This document shows positions 1 through 25,323 of a stretch of 41,415 nucleotides of DNA, one piece after another. The notes beneath the pieces are model-generated. The model saw only the letters and a list, made by a program, of their open reading frames with translations. It did not search any database and was not told the origin of the DNA. Origin of the DNA: a virus (taxonomy: Duplodnaviria > Heunggongvirae > Uroviricota > Caudoviricetes). The stretch is from IMG/VR virus record IMGVR_UViG_2579778884_000014. The stretch is one strand, 5' to 3'. The first letter of the stretch is position 1, and every line of letters begins with the position of its first letter. Made by a program: the position numbers and the translations under genes.

Positions 1-555
1 TCATTTATCTCCGACCGGAAACCTCTTATACAAAGTCGATATGCCAACATCATAGATGATCGCCACCTTCTGGCGAGGAACTCCTGATGCAATTAATCGT
101 CCGGCCTGTGCCCATTGTTCTGGTGTAAGTTTGGGACGTCGTCCACCAATTCGTCCCTGTGCGCGAGCAGCTTCCAGGCCAGCTTTTGTTCGTTCAACAA
201 TCAGTTCTCGTTCCATTTCAGCCAGGGCACCCATCACATGAAAGAAAAAACGCCCCATCGGTGTGCTGGTATCAATAGCATCCGTCAGGCTGCGAAAATT
301 AACGCCACGTTCGCGCAACTCCTCAACCAGAATGACCAGATGCCGCATACTACGCCCCAGCCGATCCAGCTTCCAGACAACCAGAGTGTCACCTGCCGAT
401 AATGTCCTGAGCAGTTTTTTCAGTCCCGGCCTTTCGGACTTTGTACCGCTTATTTTGTCTTCAAAAATCAGCTCGCATCCTGCACAGTTCAGCGCATTAC
501 GTTGTAGATCTGTGTTCTGGTCATTTGTTGACACACGTACATAGCCAATAAGCAT
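1..555 (-). CDS. pin: Serine DNA invertase (Pin/Gin/Hin/Cin family)
   Basis: Minus-strand ORF ending at the window edge; translation from the internal ATG (MLIGYVRVSTNDQNTDLQRNAL...) matches the canonical N-terminus of Pin/Gin-type invertases. ATG at 555 has a GGGAGA Shine-Dalgarno, the upstream ATG at 591 does not. Lies beside an inverted-repeat-bounded tail-fibre segment. Confidence 0.9.
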   Translation of the reverse strand: MLIGYVRVSTNDQNTDLQRNALNCAGCELIFEDKISGTKSERPGLKKLLRTLSAGDTLVVWKLDRLGRSMRHLVILVEELRERGVNFRSLTDAIDTSTPMGRFFFHVMGALAEMERELIVERTKAGLEAARAQGRIGGRRPKLTPEQWAQAGRLIASGVPRQKVAIIYDVGISTLYKRFPVGDK

Positions 556-610
556 GGTAGATCTCCCTGACAAAAGCAGGAATGATGCCATTTGCTCGTT
601 ATTTCTGCAT

Positions 611-634
611 TTTCATAAACGTTGGTTTGGGAGA
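611..634. repeat. Invertase crossover site, left boundary of invertible segment
   Basis: TTTCATAAACG-TT-GGTTTGGGAGA; the 13 bp TTGGTTTGGGAGA (622..634) is the exact reverse complement of TCTCCCAAACCAA at 2451..2463. Resembles gix/hix/cix-type sites with an AAAC..GTTT core around a central dinucleotide. Confidence 0.7.
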
Positions 635-1079
635 AGGTGCTCCAGCTATTGGCGTTCCGTTCTTCTGGCCGTCCGCCGCAATGCCAAATTCTGTCATCGA
701 CAGCTGGTCCGGTATGGTGTTTTTGAAGTTCAACGGGGCGAAATTTTCTGCCACTGATTACCCTGTGCTGGCGAAAGTGTTTCCTTCGCTGGTATTACCT
801 GAAGCCCGCGGTGATTTCATTCGTATCTGGGATGACGGGCGAGGTGCAGATGGTGGTCGCGAATTATTAAGCTGGCAGGAAGCTACAAACTTTTCTCAGT
901 TTGCCGGGAATATAGGCGGAGGTGCGGGACACGCAATTGACTTTCATGATGGCATCGCCGGAAATCAGCCAGGATTTTCACGATTTAATTTCACCAGTAA
1001 CTCTGTGGGTGATGGTGTGAATTTTGTTGCTGTCAGACCGCGAAATATTGCATTTAACTTTCTGGTGAGGGCTAAATAA
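624..1079 (+). CDS. Alternate tail-fibre C-terminal variable segment, not joined to the fibre N-terminus in this orientation
   Basis: Open frame starting at the left crossover site with no credible own start; encodes ...NVGLGEG... at the site, matching ...ENLGLGEAA... at the right-hand site inside the expressed fibre gene. Stop overlaps the ATG of the downstream assembly gene (TAATG). Confidence 0.6.
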   Translation, partial: GLGEGAPAIGVPFFWPSAAMPNSVIDSWSGMVFLKFNGAKFSATDYPVLAKVFPSLVLPEARGDFIRIWDDGRGADGGRELLSWQEATNFSQFAGNIGGGAGHAIDFHDGIAGNQPGFSRFNFTSNSVGDGVNFVAVRPRNIAFNFLVRAK

Positions 1080-1672
1080 TGAAACCTGTTTTTGATGAAA
1101 ATGGGCTGGCTACAGTGCCGGGCGATATGCGTTGTTTTTATTATGATGCTGAAACAACTGAGTATACGGGCTGGTCTGATGAATATATTAATACTGGCGT
1201 AAGTATGCCCGCCTGTTCCACTGGTATTGACCCGGGCGAAAACATTCCGGGAAAAGTGGCAGTATTTACGGGTAAGGGATGGAGCCATGAAGAAGACCAT
1301 CGCAATGAGACTGTTTACTCAACAGAAAATGGTGCAGCTGTTACAGTGGATTATATCGGTGCCATCAAAGACGGTTATGTCACGCTTTCACCGTTAACGC
1401 CATACGATAAATGGGATGGTGAGAAATGGGTGACGGATACCGAGGCACAGCATAGCGCCGCAGTAGGCGCGGCAGAAGCACAGCGCCAGTCGCTGATTGA
1501 TGCAGCAATGGCTTCCATTAGTCTGATTCAGCTGAAATTACAGGCCGGGCGGAAACTGACGCAGGCAGAAACAACCCGGCTTAACGCTGTGCTGGATTAC
1601 ATTGACGCGGTGACGGCAACAGATACCAGCACCGCGCCGGATGTCATCTGGCCTGAACTGACGGAGGCGTAG
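1079..1672 (+). CDS. Tail-fibre assembly protein, alternate copy
   Basis: 197 aa ORF directly after the alternate fibre segment, GGTGAGGG Shine-Dalgarno; position and size typical of Tfa/Mu U-prime type fibre chaperones. Converges on the minus-strand copy with a 29 bp 3-prime overlap. Confidence 0.7.
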   Translation: MKPVFDENGLATVPGDMRCFYYDAETTEYTGWSDEYINTGVSMPACSTGIDPGENIPGKVAVFTGKGWSHEEDHRNETVYSTENGAAVTVDYIGAIKDGYVTLSPLTPYDKWDGEKWVTDTEAQHSAAVGAAEAQRQSLIDAAMASISLIQLKLQAGRKLTQAETTRLNAVLDYIDAVTATDTSTAPDVIWPELTEA

Positions 1673-4676: not shown

Positions 4677-5029
4677 TACGCCTCCGATGTAACAGTCGTT
4701 ATTCCATAAAGAGTGTCGATTTCAGCGGAAAACATGACACGTCGGGTCGTGGTATCCAGCGTCGTATTGAAAGAGAGGATTGATTTAACGCCCTGCGTTT
4801 CGAGGATGCGCTTACGGATCGCCAGGTTGTAGGTTTCCGGCTTCTGCTTACCGAGTACGGACTGGATCCACGGAGTCCCCTCGGTGGTGTCGAGAAACCA
4901 TTGCCCATACCACAATTCGAATCGCGTTTTTACCGCCTGCGCCACGGCCTCCGGTGAGTTAATCAGCCAGGTGTCATCACCGCTGCCAAAGGTGTAATCG
5001 CCATCGGCGTCTTCACGTCTGTATCGCAT
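4676..5029 (-). CDS. Small baseplate assembly protein (gp25/W-like position)
   Basis: 117 aa ORF between spike and J-like genes with start/stop coupling; call is by synteny only. Confidence 0.45.
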   Translation of the reverse strand: MRYRREDADGDYTFGSGDDTWLINSPEAVAQAVKTRFELWYGQWFLDTTEGTPWIQSVLGKQKPETYNLAIRKRILETQGVKSILSFNTTLDTTTRRVMFSAEIDTLYGITTVTSEA

Positions 5030-5781
5030 CAGTTTACCCCGTCGGTACTGCTTTCACCGCGCTGAACACCACCATGAGTGTGCGTATCATCGATTGGCTT
5101 GCCGTTAGCCTTCACGCCCCCCAAAAACTCAACAGCACCAGTGATTTTTGAAGCCACACCAGAAACCACAGACCCCACCATGCCCCCCATCCAGGTTAAC
5201 AGGCCATGAATGGTTACTTTCTCAGAAAAATCAGCCAGGGGGGCAACCACATCAAGACCACCTGGAGCGACAATTTTAATTTTCCTGGTATCAGGATTAA
5301 GCTCAAAATAGGTGCTGCCGTCATCACTACGCAACTGTGTGGCACTGGTATTAATACCGCTAATCTTCCTTGCCTGCGACTGGGGACCGACAATACAAAA
5401 CGCATCCGATAAATCATGCATTCTGTCATCGACCGACTCCTGTATCCCGCCACTCTGCCACCAGAAATCAATACAACGATCGGCAAAAATCACCAAACAT
5501 TCATCACCGGCTTTAACTGGGAACGTTAGCGTACATCCTCCGCCGCGCGGGAATACCACTGGCACATCCACCAGCAATGGGTAATTTTTGGTAATGCGGT
5601 TGCCGTCATTATCCTTTTCAACCGAACGGATAGCAGGCTGCACAACTGCCGTCACCGCATCAGGATCGAATGACTGAATAATGCCAGGCAAGGCGACACG
5701 GATCTGGTTCTTTGTTGTTTCCCGTTCAGATTTGAATGTTTCGGCAAGGTCGCCGCTGCGGGTCTGGTCAGATACTGCCAT
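5029..5781 (-). CDS. Baseplate central spike (gpV/Mu gp45-like)
   Basis: 250 aa ORF; synteny with the P2 V / Mu gp45 position, glycine-rich C-terminal region. Confidence 0.55.
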   Translation of the reverse strand: MAVSDQTRSGDLAETFKSERETTKNQIRVALPGIIQSFDPDAVTAVVQPAIRSVEKDNDGNRITKNYPLLVDVPVVFPRGGGCTLTFPVKAGDECLVIFADRCIDFWWQSGGIQESVDDRMHDLSDAFCIVGPQSQARKISGINTSATQLRSDDGSTYFELNPDTRKIKIVAPGGLDVVAPLADFSEKVTIHGLLTWMGGMVGSVVSGVASKITGAVEFLGGVKANGKPIDDTHTHGGVQRGESSTDGVN

Positions 5782-5803
5782 TTAGTAGGCTCCAGAAAGC
5801 AAA

Positions 5804-5823
5804 AAACCCGCCGAAGCGGGTTT
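5804..5823 (-). terminator. Intrinsic terminator after the cargo cassette
   Basis: Perfect hairpin AAACCCGC-CGAA-GCGGGTTT; on the minus-strand transcript the stem is followed by UUUUUUGC. Lies between the cargo stop (5841) and the spike gene start (5781). Confidence 0.6.
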
Positions 5824-5840
5824 GATAACGTTAATTTTAT

Positions 5841-6236
5841 TCATGAAACTCTAGCAGACTTTAGCTGTTCCCAGCGCTCAAAATAGAGTTCAGCAGCCTC
5901 GATTGCATCCTGTCCCATCTCTTTCGAAACAGTCACATTCGTCAGATCATAGTCAGCTTCATTTCTAGCATCCCGCCACTGGCGAAGTACGAAAGCTAGG
6001 GATTTCAGTGTATTTGTCGGGTATGGCTCTGATTTGCACTCTGAGGGCGTTGACATATAACCCACAGTATTTTTGTGATGCTCATGGGTAAAATGCGGTA
6101 TGGCAGTAAGTGAGCTAATAGACTCATGTAACATACTGTAATACGCCCTTGAGATAGCGCTTCGAAATCCACTCTCAATATTTTCAGACAGACATAATCG
6201 AGCGGTATCGAGAATCTGATTGCTAGTTACCGACAT
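5841..6236 (-). CDS. Hypothetical protein, cargo gene 2; possible HEPN-like fold
   Basis: 131 aa ORF overlapping the upstream cargo gene by 14 bp; contains ...SRAYYSMLH... (R-x6-H) and a second LRQWRDARNEADYD helix. AT-rich relative to flanking tail genes by eye. Confidence 0.7.
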   Translation of the reverse strand: MSVTSNQILDTARLCLSENIESGFRSAISRAYYSMLHESISSLTAIPHFTHEHHKNTVGYMSTPSECKSEPYPTNTLKSLAFVLRQWRDARNEADYDLTNVTVSKEMGQDAIEAAELYFERWEQLKSARVS

Positions 6237-6996
6237 GGTAGCTCACCCCCGTATGCAACTGACGCGGAGAGGTAAATCTAGCTAACAGGGAACAATCATC
6301 CAGTTTAGATTCAGCGCAGACTCTATCAGCCAAGTCGAAGTTCATTTTGGCAATAGTTTTAGGCTCAAGATTTTTAATATCAACAACATAGCAACCGCTT
6401 CCACTAAGCTGAACGAAACCTGTCGTAGCCTTGTATTCACTTAGCAAGCCCCAGATTATGGATGCTAAGGTCTGGAACTGTTCCTTCGAGCACTGTGTGG
6501 CGCTATAGAAATTATCCATTTCTGCAAGGAGTTCTTCTTTGTGCTTCATAGCATTACTCCTGCCTTCTGATTCAGAAAGAAGCTTAATGTGCTCTTCCAT
6601 ATAAAATTTTAACTGTTCACGCTCGCCGCAACGGTACGCCCAACTGTATGCGTTGTGACTAAAGAGTTTTGTCCGATACTTCTTTGCCAGCGGGACATAG
6701 ACATCCTTGAGTTCATTATAGCTAAATGTATTAATTAAAATGTGATGATAGTGCATTGCCAACGTTACATCGTTTACTTCTAGGCTTATCCTGAGATAAC
6801 GTAACGCGCTTTCAATCTTTCCGGTTATTGCATCCAGATAAGATAGTGCAATGTTGGTAGCAGGCGTTGGAGAGACAGAAAGTTCCTCTCGAATTTTCTT
6901 TTCAGTGAAGGGATCTAAACTTTCCCTATCCAATAGAAGCGCATTGAATTGTTCAATATATTTTTGCGCTTTTTCTAATGGGATGCCTGCCGCCAT
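6223..6996 (-). CDS. Hypothetical protein, cargo gene 1
   Basis: 257 aa ORF with no recognisable virion-protein or enzyme motif; AT-rich by eye; preceded by a promoter-like element and a weak AAGAGA Shine-Dalgarno. Confidence 0.7.
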   Translation of the reverse strand: MAAGIPLEKAQKYIEQFNALLLDRESLDPFTEKKIREELSVSPTPATNIALSYLDAITGKIESALRYLRISLEVNDVTLAMHYHHILINTFSYNELKDVYVPLAKKYRTKLFSHNAYSWAYRCGEREQLKFYMEEHIKLLSESEGRSNAMKHKEELLAEMDNFYSATQCSKEQFQTLASIIWGLLSEYKATTGFVQLSGSGCYVVDIKNLEPKTIAKMNFDLADRVCAESKLDDCSLLARFTSPRQLHTGVSYHVGN

Positions 6997-7025
6997 GGAT
7001 TATTTCTCTTACTAAAGGGATTGTG

Positions 7026-7054
7026 ATTGTGAACTTTGAACAATATCTCGTCAA
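7026..7054 (-). promoter_or_regulatory. Putative sigma70 promoter for the cargo cassette
   Basis: On the minus strand TTGACG - 17 nt - CACAAT about 30 nt upstream of the ATG at 6996, in the 95 bp gap after the 110 aa gene. Imperfect -10; not validated. Confidence 0.3.
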
Positions 7055-7091
7055 CCTTAAAGCGCTCATCTCGGAAGATTGACATCAAACT

Positions 7092-7424
7092 TTAGCGTAA
7101 CGCCTTTTTACACGGGAAAGATCCAATGATTTTCGGCGCGTCCATGCTGTTCTGCAGCAGCTGGACGTTCAGGAAAGCTTTTCCGTTACGTTTCACAAAC
7201 TCAAAGCCGTAATTGTTACCATCACGGGAAGGCATCAGGCCCATGTCCATTTTCATGTTTGAATAGTCACCATCTTTTCCCAGAAATTTTATCTTCTGTG
7301 ATGTGACAGTTTCACCGTTAATAACAGTCATTCCGTCACCGGTCATCGTGTAGTTGCCGCACTGAATTGCAGCCATCGCCGGAGCAGTAACCATCATAAC
7401 TAACGCCAAACATAACCGTTTCAT
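7092..7424 (-). CDS. Small secreted protein of unknown function (signal peptide)
   Basis: 110 aa; N-terminus MKRLCLALVMMVTAPAMAA looks like a Sec signal peptide with an AxA cleavage site; start overlaps the stop of the upstream gene (TAATG). Confidence 0.65.
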   Translation of the reverse strand: MKRLCLALVMMVTAPAMAAIQCGNYTMTGDGMTVINGETVTSQKIKFLGKDGDYSNMKMDMGLMPSRDGNNYGFEFVKRNGKAFLNVQLLQNSMDAPKIIGSFPCKKALR

Positions 7425-24847: not shown

Positions 24848-25270
24848 TTATGCCGCCGAGCAGCTCCTACGCAAAGTCCTGATAGCCTGAGGCTTTGACT
24901 GAACCGACTGATCCATTTCGAGCACCACATCCAGCATGGCTAAGCAACCGTCAATAAATCCCTCTGCCGCCTGAAGCCTCTTCAGAACGTGGGTGTGAGA
25001 TACGCCGAGCTTCTCACCCATCGCCCGCACGGGCATGGCCTGGACGTAATGCCACTCAAGGAGCGTGCACAGATACGGATCTTTTTTCTTCAGGCAGCTC
25101 ATAGCGGAGTTGATGATAAGACCGTCATTGTCACTGCATTTCAGCCTTCCAGACTGCGTCGCGGGTAGCAGATTCTTAAACCCGGCTGCAACAGGAGGAA
25201 AGTAGACACTACCACCTTCACTCGCTGCCCAGCCACCCCAGCGCTCTAAAACCTGTTGAATATTACGCAT
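24848..25270 (-). CDS. Late-gene antiterminator Q (phage 82/21-type)
   Basis: 140 aa; N-terminus MRNIQQVLERWGGWAA... matches the Q-family signature (MR.IQ.VLERWG.WAA) as recalled; lies upstream of the lysis cassette. Confidence 0.8.
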   Translation of the reverse strand: MRNIQQVLERWGGWAASEGGSVYFPPVAAGFKNLLPATQSGRLKCSDNDGLIINSAMSCLKKKDPYLCTLLEWHYVQAMPVRAMGEKLGVSHTHVLKRLQAAEGFIDGCLAMLDVVLEMDQSVQSKPQAIRTLRRSCSAA

Positions 25271-25323
25271 AGCTCTGACCTCTACGTTTTGCTACGAAAA
25301 AATTTTCTGAGAACCACGTTTGT

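What the first reader, a model, noticed from the sequence alone, without database searches (positions are those of the whole stretch)
5798..7060. Compositionally foreign two-gene cassette with its own promoter and terminator, inserted between baseplate hub and spike genes
Two overlapping minus-strand ORFs (257 aa at 6223..6996, then 131 aa at 5841..6236, 14 bp overlap) interrupt an otherwise syntenic Mu/P2-like baseplate block. The segment is visibly more AT-rich than the flanking tail genes (by eye, not computed). It is preceded by a sigma70-like element (TTGACG-17-CACAAT, 7026..7054) and followed by a strong intrinsic terminator (5804..5823) that would stop lysogenic transcription before the spike gene, while Q-modified late transcription could read through. 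This is the classic moron architecture. Neither protein resembles a virion component or a family I recognise; the pair is a candidate previously undescribed defence/abortive-infection or toxin-antitoxin module carried as lysogenic-conversion cargo.
Basis: partly seen in the sequence, partly recalled or inferred. Interest (0 to 1): 0.85.

Follow-up and report, generated by a model that had tools for sequence, protein, structure and literature searches.

The report
Prophage TPR–HEPN two-gene moron cassette
A self-contained two-gene unit with its own promoter and terminator sits in a variable slot of an E. coli prophage's tail-gene block; it encodes a repeat-domain (TPR) protein and a small HEPN nuclease-like protein, a pairing found only in phages, and it is a credible but untested candidate for a new toxin–antitoxin-like anti-phage module.

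Summary
Two overlapping minus-strand genes (257 aa at 6223-6996; 131 aa at 5841-6236) form the lowest-G+C 1.3 kb of the window. A sigma70-like promoter precedes them and a strong terminator follows. Promoter and terminator are kept at fixed positions in 29/33 and 32/33 distinct relatives, against 5% and 0.9% of controls.

The proteins are not unclassifiable. The small one is an AF0298/UPF0332-type HEPN domain (R-x3-D-Y, with an alternative His). The large one is a TPR array plus a small alpha/beta C-terminal domain.

The pair always travels together, is under purifying selection, and sits in six different phage genome settings. In relatives of Salmonella phage SEN34 the site is a cargo hotspot that also holds very divergent alleles of the same pair. 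No match was found in PADLOC, Pfam or NCBIfam, and the literature searches found no description of it.

Best reading: a lysogen-expressed moron encoding a HEPN effector held in check by a TPR sensor/neutraliser, acting as a toxin–antitoxin or abortive-infection module. Function is inferred, not shown. It would be a new variant of a known kind. Interest is moderate.

The parts
7026..7054 (-). Cassette promoter: -35 TTGACG (7054-7049), 17-nt spacer, -10 CACAAT (7031-7026). The -35 starts 58 nt upstream of the A-gene ATG.
   Evidence: Consensus scan. The position and both hexamers are conserved in 29/33 distinct relatives, including pairs only ~40% identical and pairs in unrelated phage backbones. 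The control rate is 5%.
6223..6996 (-). Gene A, 257 aa. Eight helices form about four TPR-like repeats (res 7-139), followed by two long helices (146-187), a small beta-beta-alpha-beta C-terminal domain (192-242) and a conserved, low-confidence tail (244-253). The first 10 residues (MAAGIPLEKA) are also highly conserved.
6242..6250 (-). Shine-Dalgarno-like GGGGGTGAG inside the 3' end of gene A, 5 nt (6241-6237) before the gene B ATG (6236). With the 14-bp overlap it suggests translational coupling.
   Evidence: Read directly from the sequence.
5841..6236 (-). Gene B, 131 aa: HEPN domain of the AF0298/UPF0332 (HEPN-T, PF05168-like) clade. Invariant residues are R25, S29-R30-A-Y32-Y33, H37, H53-H54, R88, and R91-N-E-A-D95-Y96. 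This gene is not annotated in the RefSeq record of the near-identical genome.
   Evidence: PDB HEPN chains 9xbd/9xbc (E=0.002 with the single sequence, 9e-7 with the profile) and 2hsb AF0298 (9e-5). PF05168 hit in 9/25 family members. Alignment. phrog_5176. dN/dS 0.05. PGAP gap.
5798..5823 (-). Intrinsic terminator: 8-bp G+C-rich stem, UUCG loop, U-tract. It begins 17 nt after the gene B stop codon and ends 17 nt before the spike gene ATG.
   Evidence: Conserved in 32/33 relatives. Also present before the spike gene in relatives with unrelated cargo.
7092..7424 (-). Upstream flank: 110-aa protein with an N-terminal signal peptide (phrog_3443, function unknown). G+C 0.45. It is part of the variable zone and is replaced by a 241-aa lipoprotein gene in one relative.
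5029..5781 (-). Downstream flank: tail spike gene (PF18352 plus the GpV apex motif). Late expression of this gene has to pass the cassette terminator.
24848..25270 (-). Context: Q-family antiterminator gene of the same prophage. It lies upstream of the lysis and structural genes on the same strand.
   Evidence: PF06530, E=5e-42. RefSeq annotation.

Best explanation
The segment is an autonomous moron, organised as promoter, gene A, gene B, terminator. It is carried in a cargo hotspot of the tail operon of a SEN34/Brunovirus-like temperate myovirus.

Proposed mechanism (each step inferred unless marked shown):
1. In the lysogen the cassette's own sigma70 promoter makes a short transcript that stops at the terminator before the spike gene.
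2. In lytic growth, Q-modified late transcription reads through the terminator.
3. Gene B encodes an AF0298-type HEPN protein (shown). It is the likely effector, an RNase that uses the non-canonical R91/D95/Y96 plus H53/H54 site.
4. Gene A is a TPR protein whose conserved C-terminal half, N-terminus and tail bind and silence B. Its more variable TPR array senses a trigger, most likely a protein of an infecting phage.
5. The trigger releases B, which shuts down RNA function and aborts the infection. This is toxin-antitoxin-like superinfection defence.

A may descend from the MNT antitoxin that normally partners this HEPN clade, with its enzyme function lost and a TPR sensor added. That step is speculative.
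For: Autonomous unit:
- Lowest G+C in the window.
- Promoter at a fixed distance in 29/33 relatives and terminator in 32/33, far above the control rates.

Obligate pair:
- Every family-A locus with enough flanking sequence has a HEPN-B homologue immediately downstream, usually overlapping. This holds even at 14-20% A identity.
- A and B identities co-vary (Pearson 0.97). They track the flanking hub and spike genes less well (Spearman about 0.6).

Both genes functional: dN/dS is 0.07 for A and 0.05 for B. The TPR region evolves about twice as fast as the rest of A (0.10 against 0.056).

Mobile accessory cargo, not a virion part:
- It occurs in six different phage settings. These are the hub|spike site of E217-like myoviruses, the tape-measure|DNA-circulation site of a Mu-like Aeromonas prophage and a site before the tape-measure gene of a Klebsiella siphovirus. 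The others are the same region of a Pa193-like phage, the gpL|gpK site of lambda-like phages and the integrase end of a P2-like prophage.
- It is present in only 27 of 353 E. coli genomes that carry the related tail region, and in 1-2 of 50,697 phage records.
- The same slot holds other conflict-type cargo, such as a YafO-family toxin pair, and highly diverged A-B alleles.

B is HEPN of the clade reported to keep the R, lose the motif His and use an alternative His between helices 2 and 3 (PMC3710099).

Precedents: prophage HEPN RNases that defend lysogens and need a cognate inhibitor (Tha/Ith, PMC11087260), and the HEPN abortive-infection protein AbiV (bioRxiv 10.1101/2024.05.05.592566).
Against: - There are no functional data of any kind. 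Toxicity, neutralisation, RNase activity and phage protection are all inferred.
- B lacks the canonical Rx4-6H histidine, so it could be non-catalytic.
- A has no DNA-binding domain, unlike typical type II antitoxins.
- In two assemblies a 1-nt deletion frameshifts A at about codon 39 while B stays intact. That is unexpected if full-length A were an essential antitoxin.
- No model in PADLOC matches.
- The strong preference for tail modules is not explained by a defence role.
Confidence: 0.5

Rival explanations
1. A purely selfish addiction (toxin-antitoxin) module. B is a toxin and A its labile antidote. The pair persists because loss of the prophage or of the cassette kills or arrests the cell, and it plays no role against other phages.
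For: The anatomy is the same as in the best explanation: overlapping partner-then-HEPN genes, obligate pairing, co-variation and an own promoter. It is horizontally mobile among phage backbones.
Against: An addiction role does not explain the large TPR array or its faster evolution. Nor does it explain the extreme allelic diversification at one hotspot, or two different alleles co-resident in one genome. A is frameshifted with B intact in two assemblies.
Confidence: 0.18
2. A non-toxic accessory pair that serves the phage's own late functions. Examples are a TPR chaperone plus an RNA-binding (non-catalytic) HEPN protein that modulates tail or baseplate assembly or late gene expression, made mainly by late read-through transcription.
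For: Five of the six genomic settings are inside tail morphogenesis modules, in the same orientation as the late genes. TPR proteins are frequent chaperones, and chaperone-type TPR hits appear. B lacks the canonical catalytic His. A-disrupted, B-intact variants exist.
Against: The pair has its own conserved sigma70-type promoter and terminator. Its composition is foreign. It is absent from most close relatives that share nearly identical hub and spike genes, and from nearly all sequenced phages. It also occurs at the integrase end of a P2-like prophage, outside any tail module. B keeps an invariant polar constellation (R, D, Y, H) typical of active-site conservation.
Confidence: 0.12
3. A counter-defence (anti-immunity) module. 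The pair neutralises a host defence system, for example by sequestering or degrading a signalling nucleotide or RNA, to the benefit of the phage during infection.
For: It is phage-restricted, shows patchy arms-race-like diversification and sits in variable slots.
Against: Counter-defence genes are usually expressed early, not insulated inside late operons. The promoter-plus-terminator design fits expression in the lysogen. HEPN domains are known as effectors and toxins rather than as inhibitors (PMC3710099).
Confidence: 0.07

Closest known systems
MNT-HEPN toxin-antitoxin systems (classical HEPN-T/PF05168 with a minimal nucleotidyltransferase; type VII HepT/MntA)
   Different: A has no hG[GS]...DxD nucleotidyltransferase motif and no conserved acidic residues across the wider family. 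It has no sequence similarity to MNT. It carries about 140 residues of TPR repeats. B lacks the R-phi-xxx-H histidine of HepT. Any neutralisation would therefore have to be by binding, not by AMPylation.
AF0298 (PDB 2hsb, UPF0332) and the HEPN proteins of PDB 9xbd/9xbc
   Same: These are the best sequence relatives with solved structures. They share the SRAYY..H motif, the alternative His and the R..(D/S)DY motif.
   Different: They are stand-alone or MNT-linked cellular proteins and are not known as phage cargo. No functional description of 9xbd/9xbc was found.
Tha/Ith of Staphylococcus aureus prophages (PMC11087260)
   Same: A prophage-encoded HEPN RNase expressed in the lysogen. It is activated by proteins of incoming phages and is held in check by a cognate phage-encoded inhibitor to avoid autoimmunity.
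   Different: Tha is a single protein of about 300 aa with a canonical R265/H270 HEPN domain, located in the lysogeny module. Ith is a small antisense-encoded protein. There is no TPR, no sequence relation was detected, and the genomic location differs.
AbiV (Lactococcus) HEPN abortive-infection system
   Same: Anantharaman et al. 2013 group AbiV with AF0298-like HEPN-T because both have an alternative conserved His (PMC3710099). AbiV is an anti-phage HEPN RNase.
   Different: [quoted passage not shown] Here the partner is a 257-aa protein. No Rfam family or repeat RNA is present. No member hit a Pfam HEPN_AbiV model, only PF05168.
HEPN operons with TPR or Sel1 repeat proteins predicted by Anantharaman et al. 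2013 (LA2681 family; AbiU2 with Sel1)
   Same: A HEPN domain genetically coupled to a helical-repeat (TPR or Sel1) protein in a predicted conflict system.
   Different: Those HEPN families keep the canonical Rx4-6H motif and are not described as phage tail-module morons. No sequence link to A or B was found here.
Classical phage morons and prophage defence hotspots (for example the P2/P4 hotspots, PMC9122126)
   Same: A promoter-gene-terminator unit of deviant composition inside a late operon. The slot carries interchangeable cargo among otherwise syntenic phages. One distant allele sits at the P2-like integrase end.
   Different: This hotspot, between the hub-adjacent gene and the spike gene of SEN34-like phages, and this cargo family are not among the systems listed in PADLOC. 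They also did not turn up in the papers searched.

Membership tests
HEPN superfamily, HEPN-T clade (PF05168 / UPF0332, AF0298-like) | Full-length sequence similarity to known HEPN-T domains | tested here: met
   The profile of the B family hits 9xbd (8.8e-7), 9xbc and 2hsb/AF0298 (9.2e-5) over about 100 of 131 residues. PF05168 is hit by 9/25 members (best 3.8e-5), although not by the window protein itself.
HEPN superfamily, HEPN-T clade (PF05168 / UPF0332, AF0298-like) | Canonical Rx4-6H catalytic motif | tested here: not met
   The motif is R91-N-E-A-D95-Y96, with no His at the motif position in any of 25 members. This is the known deviation of the AF0298/AbiV-like clade (PMC3710099).
HEPN superfamily, HEPN-T clade (PF05168 / UPF0332, AF0298-like) | Alternative conserved His N-terminal to the motif, between helices 2 and 3, with the motif Arg retained | tested here: met
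   H53, H54, R88 and R91 are invariant in the close family. One His and the R-x3-D-Y motif are kept in pairs only 27-36% identical. The helix assignment is inferred from the alignment to 2hsb, not from a model.
[quoted passage not shown] | Partner is an active minimal nucleotidyltransferase (hG[GS] and DxD motifs) | tested here: not met
[quoted passage not shown] | Operon order partner then HEPN, closely coupled | tested here: met
   14-bp overlap in the window. The genes overlap or abut in nearly all relatives.
[quoted passage not shown] | HEPN toxic to the cell and neutralised by oligoAMPylation of a Tyr | not testable with these tools
   Y96 is invariant, but no modification or toxicity can be assessed in silico.
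Type II toxin-antitoxin module (generic) | Antitoxin with a DNA-binding domain that autoregulates the operon | tested here: not met
   No HTH, RHH or AbrB domain in A by Pfam or by fold.
Type II toxin-antitoxin module (generic) | Antitoxin never lost while the toxin is intact | tested here: inconclusive
   Two assemblies (L051, L052) have a 1-nt deletion that frameshifts A at about codon 39, with B intact. A restart could still produce the C-terminal half of A.
Moron (autonomous accessory transcription unit in a late operon) | Own promoter upstream and terminator downstream | tested here: met
   Positionally conserved in 29/33 and 32/33 relatives, against 5% and 0.9% of controls. Actual transcription was not tested.
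Moron (autonomous accessory transcription unit in a late operon) | Base composition distinct from the flanking phage genes | tested here: met
   G+C 0.422 against 0.508 +/- 0.032, in the lowest 0.4% of windows. GC3 is 0.40-0.43 against 0.49-0.64.
Moron (autonomous accessory transcription unit in a late operon) | Present or absent among otherwise syntenic relatives | tested here: met
   27 of 353 E. coli genomes with the related region carry it. Relatives with 97-100% identical hub and spike genes carry other cargo.
Known anti-phage defence systems (PADLOC-DB 2.0) | Significant match of either protein to a system model | tested here: not met
   No hit for A or B at E<=1. Only weak generic HEPN hits (E 0.002-0.05) for distant B homologues and stray hits for A relatives. 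The pair is not DS-28 of DefensePredictor.
TPR repeat proteins | Tandem helix-turn-helix repeats with TPR sequence or fold signature | tested here: met

The most novel reading that the evidence does not exclude
The A-B pair would be a previously unrecognised, phage-borne immune module. In it, a diversifying TPR sensor fused to a catalytically dead descendant of the MNT antitoxin gates a non-canonical (His-less motif) HEPN RNase. Placement behind a terminator inside the Q-dependent late operon would tie its dosage to the prophage's own life cycle, perhaps to avoid autoimmunity in the way Tha/Ith does. That would make it a new mechanistic class of HEPN regulation: binding and sensing instead of AMPylation.
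Probability: 0.3. Interest if true: 0.7.

Novelty: new variant of a known kind. Interest (0 to 1): 0.55.

Why it matters
If the pair is a working defence or toxin-antitoxin module, several things follow.

- It adds a new partner type, a TPR sensor plus a degenerate alpha/beta domain, to the large HEPN effector family.
- It shows how the classical MNT-HEPN pairing can be rewired.
- It identifies a new cargo hotspot, between the hub-adjacent gene and the spike gene, in a widespread group of enterobacterial temperate myoviruses. That slot also holds other candidate conflict genes.
- It would give a function to the poorly understood AF0298/UPF0332 HEPN clade, whose catalytic status is unsettled.

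There is also a practical point. The HEPN gene is missing from the RefSeq annotation of most genomes that carry it, so annotation-based defence finders would not see the pair.

Tried and rejected
- Pfam, NCBIfam and PADLOC scans of both window proteins gave no hits. PHROGs gave only families of unknown function.
- The PDB sequence search for A found nothing meaningful.
- A Foldseek search against afdb50 could not be run because the library was unavailable.
- The search for related loci with the wide alignment failed for lack of a conserved stretch. With the close alignment, only 4 of 185,579 species-representative genomes matched.
- A literature search for the PDB codes 9xbc/9xbd, for WP_000718774 and for the PHROG ids found nothing relevant.
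- The DefensePredictor system DS-28 (a HEPN protein plus a 252-aa protein in E. coli) was checked and rejected. Its HEPN has a canonical RNSVAH motif, comes first in the operon, and its partner is unrelated.
- NetFlax (PMC10440598) does not cover this pair.
- Rfam found no RNA family in or around the cassette. The sub-threshold hits are driven by the terminator, so an AbiV-like RNA antitoxin is not supported.
- The 170-aa cargo protein of strain KTa008 carries an RNNLFH motif but is not related to B by hhalign.
- A virion or assembly role was considered and ranked low, for the reasons given under the rival explanations.
Full report
WHAT IS THERE

The window is a complete temperate myovirus prophage of E. 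coli. It runs from a Pin invertase and tail-fibre genes at the left end to an integrase next to yfhL at the right end. Over the finding it is identical to strain BH100N.

Its tail and baseplate genes are of the E217/Pam3 type: Dit-like protein, Pam3 gp18 plug, E217 gp41-like hub, spike, sheath initiator, baseplate J and wedge. The closest named phage is Salmonella phage SEN34, genus Brunovirus.

On the minus strand, between a 110-aa signal-peptide protein gene (7092-7424, just downstream of the hub gene) and the spike gene (5029-5781), lie two ORFs. Gene A is 6223-6996 (257 aa) and gene B is 5841-6236 (131 aa). They overlap by 14 bp, and a GGGGGTGAG ribosome-binding sequence precedes the second ATG.

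CHECK OF THE OBSERVATION

- Composition. The segment 5782-7091 has G+C 0.422, against 0.508 +/- 0.032 for equal-sized windows. It is the lowest-G+C stretch of the 41 kb (0.4% tail). GC3 is 0.40-0.43, against 0.49-0.64 for the neighbouring hub, plug, Dit-like and spike genes.
- Promoter. TTGACG-17-CACAAT (7054-7026) is only a 9/12 consensus match. Taken alone it is not above chance, since 5 sites were found in 4.5 kb against 5.7 expected.
- Terminator. The site at 5823-5804 is strong: an 8-bp G+C-rich stem, a UUCG loop and a U6 tail, with dG -13.1 kcal/mol.

The decisive test was comparative. I collected 33 distinct upstream regions of homologous pairs. They include pairs only about 40% identical in protein and pairs sitting in unrelated phage backbones.

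- 29 of 33 have a sigma70-like promoter whose -35 hexamer (TTGAC[G/T]) starts 57-62 nt before the ATG, with 17-18 nt spacing. Only 5% of random 150-nt segments of the same loci have any such site.
- 32 of 33 have a hairpin plus T-run 15-34 nt after the stop codon of the second gene, against 0.9% of controls.

So promoter, two genes and terminator form one conserved transcription unit.

WHAT THE PROTEINS ARE

Protein B is a HEPN domain.

- It matches the PDB HEPN chains 9xbd/9xbc (E=0.002 with the single sequence, 9e-7 with the family profile) and AF0298/UPF0332 (2hsb, 9e-5).
- Nine of 25 family members hit Pfam PF05168.
- Invariant residues are S29-R30-A-Y32-Y33, H37, H53-H54, R88 and R91-N-E-A-D95-Y96.
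- The canonical Rx4-6H histidine is absent. Anantharaman et al. 2013 describe exactly this for the AF0298/AbiV-like HEPN-T proteins. The motif Arg is kept, the His is typically absent (in the wider HEPN-T family an Asp often takes its place), and an alternative conserved His from the insert between helices 2 and 3 may rebuild an active site (PMC3710099).
- R-x3-D-Y and one His persist in partners only 27-36% identical.

Protein A has no Pfam, NCBIfam or PADLOC match and belongs to a PHROG of unknown function.

- A high-confidence AlphaFold model (pLDDT 91.5) shows eight paired helices (about four TPR-like repeats, residues 7-139), two long helices, a small beta-beta-alpha-beta domain (192-242) and a low-confidence tail.
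- There is no sequence support for that link, and no acidic residue is conserved across the wider family. If the domain descends from MNT, it is no longer an enzyme.
- Within the close family, the most conserved parts are the first 10 residues and the tail 244-253 (about 0.9 column identity). The TPR region 11-106 is the most variable (0.57-0.58).

DISTRIBUTION AND CONTEXT

Family A comprises about 120 clusters at 50% identity among 1.8 billion proteins, nearly all 250-260 aa long.

Every locus I could inspect with enough flanking sequence has a B homologue immediately downstream. Across loci, A and B identities to the window proteins correlate tightly (Pearson 0.97). They correlate less with the flanking hub and spike genes (Spearman about 0.6).

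Both genes are under strong purifying selection. dN/dS is 0.07 for A and 0.05 for B, with the TPR part of A at 0.10 against 0.056 for the rest. The 131-aa ORF is therefore a real gene, although RefSeq leaves it unannotated in BH100N and in most of the 27 genomes that carry it.

The pair is phage cargo in six different settings:

- the slot between the hub-adjacent gene and the spike gene of SEN34-like myoviruses from E. coli, Rahnella, Yersinia, Phytobacter and others (37 loci);
- between the tape measure and DNA-circulation genes of a Mu-like Aeromonas prophage;
- upstream of the tape-measure gene, after the tail tube and PF27119 (YdaY-like) genes, in a Klebsiella siphovirus;
- before the large gene that precedes the Dit-like gene (presumed tape measure) in a Pa193/E217-like phage;
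- between gpL and gpK of lambda-like prophages;
- at the integrase end of a P2/186-like prophage.

It is rare. It appears in 27 of 5,426 complete E. coli genomes (98.4-100% identical), in 4 of 185,579 species-representative genomes, and in one or two of 50,697 phage records.

THE SLOT IS A HOTSPOT

The related hub-to-spike region is present in 353 E. coli genomes, but only 27 carry this cassette. All eleven relatives inspected had some cargo at the site. The cargo varies among relatives whose hub and spike genes are 97-100% identical:

- a 170-aa protein;
- a 241-aa lipoprotein that also replaces the 110-aa gene;
- a DUF4282 protein;
- a DUF2335 protein;
- a 190-aa protein plus a YafO-family toxin;
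- in phages SEN34, YP3 and Mulock, other small ORFs.

Several cargoes are deeply diverged alleles of the same A-B pair.

- The TL20 type has A 32% and B 37% identical to the window proteins. It is found in 3 genomes.
- The LR-46/OkiPb type has A about 14% identical, but with hhalign probability 99.4%. Its B has probability 96-97%. It is found in 33 genomes.
- Strain TL20 carries two different alleles in two prophages.

Backbone identity and cargo identity are decoupled. L049 has a hub 96% identical but A only 42%. L031 has a spike 55% identical but A 89%.

The terminator in front of the spike gene is present whatever the cargo. The prophage encodes a Q antiterminator upstream on the same strand (PF06530, E=5e-42).

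HOW IT MOST LIKELY WORKS

Shown:

- an autonomous, mobile, compositionally foreign promoter-A-B-terminator unit;
- an obligate A-B pairing under purifying selection;
- B is an AF0298-type HEPN domain and A is a TPR protein with a small C-terminal domain;
- the location is a variable cargo slot.

Inferred:

- B is an RNase-type effector that uses R91, D95 and Y96 together with H53/H54.
- A binds and silences B through its conserved C-terminal half and termini, and senses a trigger through the faster-evolving TPR array.
- Infection by another phage releases B and aborts the infection.

Precedents are the MNT-HEPN toxin-antitoxin systems, which use the same HEPN clade and the same gene order, the prophage HEPN system Tha with its inhibitor Ith (PMC11087260), and AbiV.

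I put this at about 0.5. Rivals are a purely selfish addiction module (0.18), a non-toxic accessory role in the phage's own late functions (0.12) and counter-defence (0.07).

Points against the favoured model:

- there are no functional data at all;
- the canonical catalytic His is missing;
- A has no DNA-binding domain;
- the MNT link rests on weak structural evidence only;
- two assemblies carry a 1-nt deletion that frameshifts A at about codon 39 while B stays intact;
- the marked preference for tail modules is unexplained.

COMPARISON WITH WHAT IS KNOWN, AND NOVELTY

B is a member of the HEPN superfamily (HEPN-T, AF0298-like). The pair is not a member of MNT-HEPN/HepT-MntA, because there are no nucleotidyltransferase motifs and no R-phi-xxx-H motif. 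It also matches none of the following:

- Tha/Ith;
- AbiV, since no RNA partner was found;
- any PADLOC model;
- DefensePredictor DS-28.

HEPN-with-TPR/Sel1 operons were predicted in 2013 for other HEPN families. No paper found here describes this family or this hotspot.

I rate it a new variant of a known kind, namely HEPN-based toxin-antitoxin or abortive-infection modules, and of moderate interest (0.55). It is a well-supported and easily testable candidate, but not a categorically new thing, and its function is unproven.

Noticed in passing
window 7092-7424 (-): The 110-aa protein just downstream of the hub gene has a clear N-terminal signal peptide (MKRLCLALVMMVTAPAMAA...), low G+C (0.45) and belongs to a PHROG of unknown function. 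It is kept next to the hub in most SEN34-like phages at only 34-70% identity. In strain ECE170 it is replaced by a 241-aa lipoprotein. It may itself be accessory cargo, for example a superinfection-exclusion protein.
   Followed up: partly
window 5841-6236 (-); NZ_CP025703.1 2809841-2810236: RefSeq/PGAP does not annotate the 131-aa HEPN gene in BH100N; locus tag RS14270 is skipped. Most of the 27 E. coli genomes carrying the cassette list only one 'hypothetical protein' under the match. The gene is intact, conserved and under purifying selection, so annotation-based defence or toxin-antitoxin finders will miss the pair.
   Followed up: yes
L002 (E. coli KTa008) 1843-2355: The alternative cargo at the same slot is a 170-aa protein with an R-N-N-L-F-H (Rx4H-like) motif near its C-terminus. 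It is possibly a different, canonical HEPN-type protein. It has no Pfam or PADLOC hit and no hhalign relation to B.
   Followed up: partly
L067 (E. coli 98207) 1028-2018: The same slot carries a 190-aa hypothetical protein followed by a YafO-family type II toxin. This is another two-gene cargo with a toxin-antitoxin look, which suggests the hotspot collects conflict modules.
   Followed up: no
E. coli TL20, NZ_CP191567.1 about 882.4 kb and about 3170.4 kb: One genome carries two very different A-B alleles (LR-46 type and TL20 type) in two prophages. This would be expected if the alleles are functionally insulated from each other.
   Followed up: partly
L051 4458-4518 and L052 5986-6046: A 1-nt deletion (CTTGAAAA to CTTAAAA, not a homopolymer slip) frameshifts gene A at about codon 39 in two assemblies, while gene B stays intact.
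   Followed up: yes
L002, L004, L003 and window 5798-5823: The terminator hairpin directly before the spike gene keeps the same stem (ACCCGC/GCGGGT) but has different loops whatever cargo sits upstream. It may mark the recombination boundary of the hotspot as well as insulate the cargo.
   Followed up: partly
window about 24.0-24.5 kb onward, compared with NZ_CP025703.1: ORF coordinates in the window are 48 bp lower than in the BH100N record from about 24.5 kb onward (for example 24848-25270 against 24896-25318). The window therefore comes from a close relative with a 48-bp indel between the holin gene and the next gene, not from BH100N itself.
   Followed up: no
window 1-1441: A pinE-type invertase gene lies next to oppositely oriented tail-fibre C-terminal and tail-fibre-assembly gene copies. 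This is the layout of an invertible host-range switch.
   Followed up: no
window about 27.5-29.0 kb and about 32.2-33.5 kb: Two further low-G+C stretches (0.43-0.44) were seen. The first covers the HTH/LexA-family repressor region and an unannotated gap. The second covers an Nmad5-family 'nucleotide modification' gene. That gene sits in a replication module with DUF2800, DUF2815, a DNA polymerase, VRR-NUC, an SNF2 protein and two methyltransferases.
   Followed up: no
L065 1438-3912: A lambda-like prophage that carries a distant A-B allele between gpL and gpK also has a HigB/HigA-like pair and a porin gene inserted among its tail genes. This is another tail module loaded with morons.
   Followed up: no
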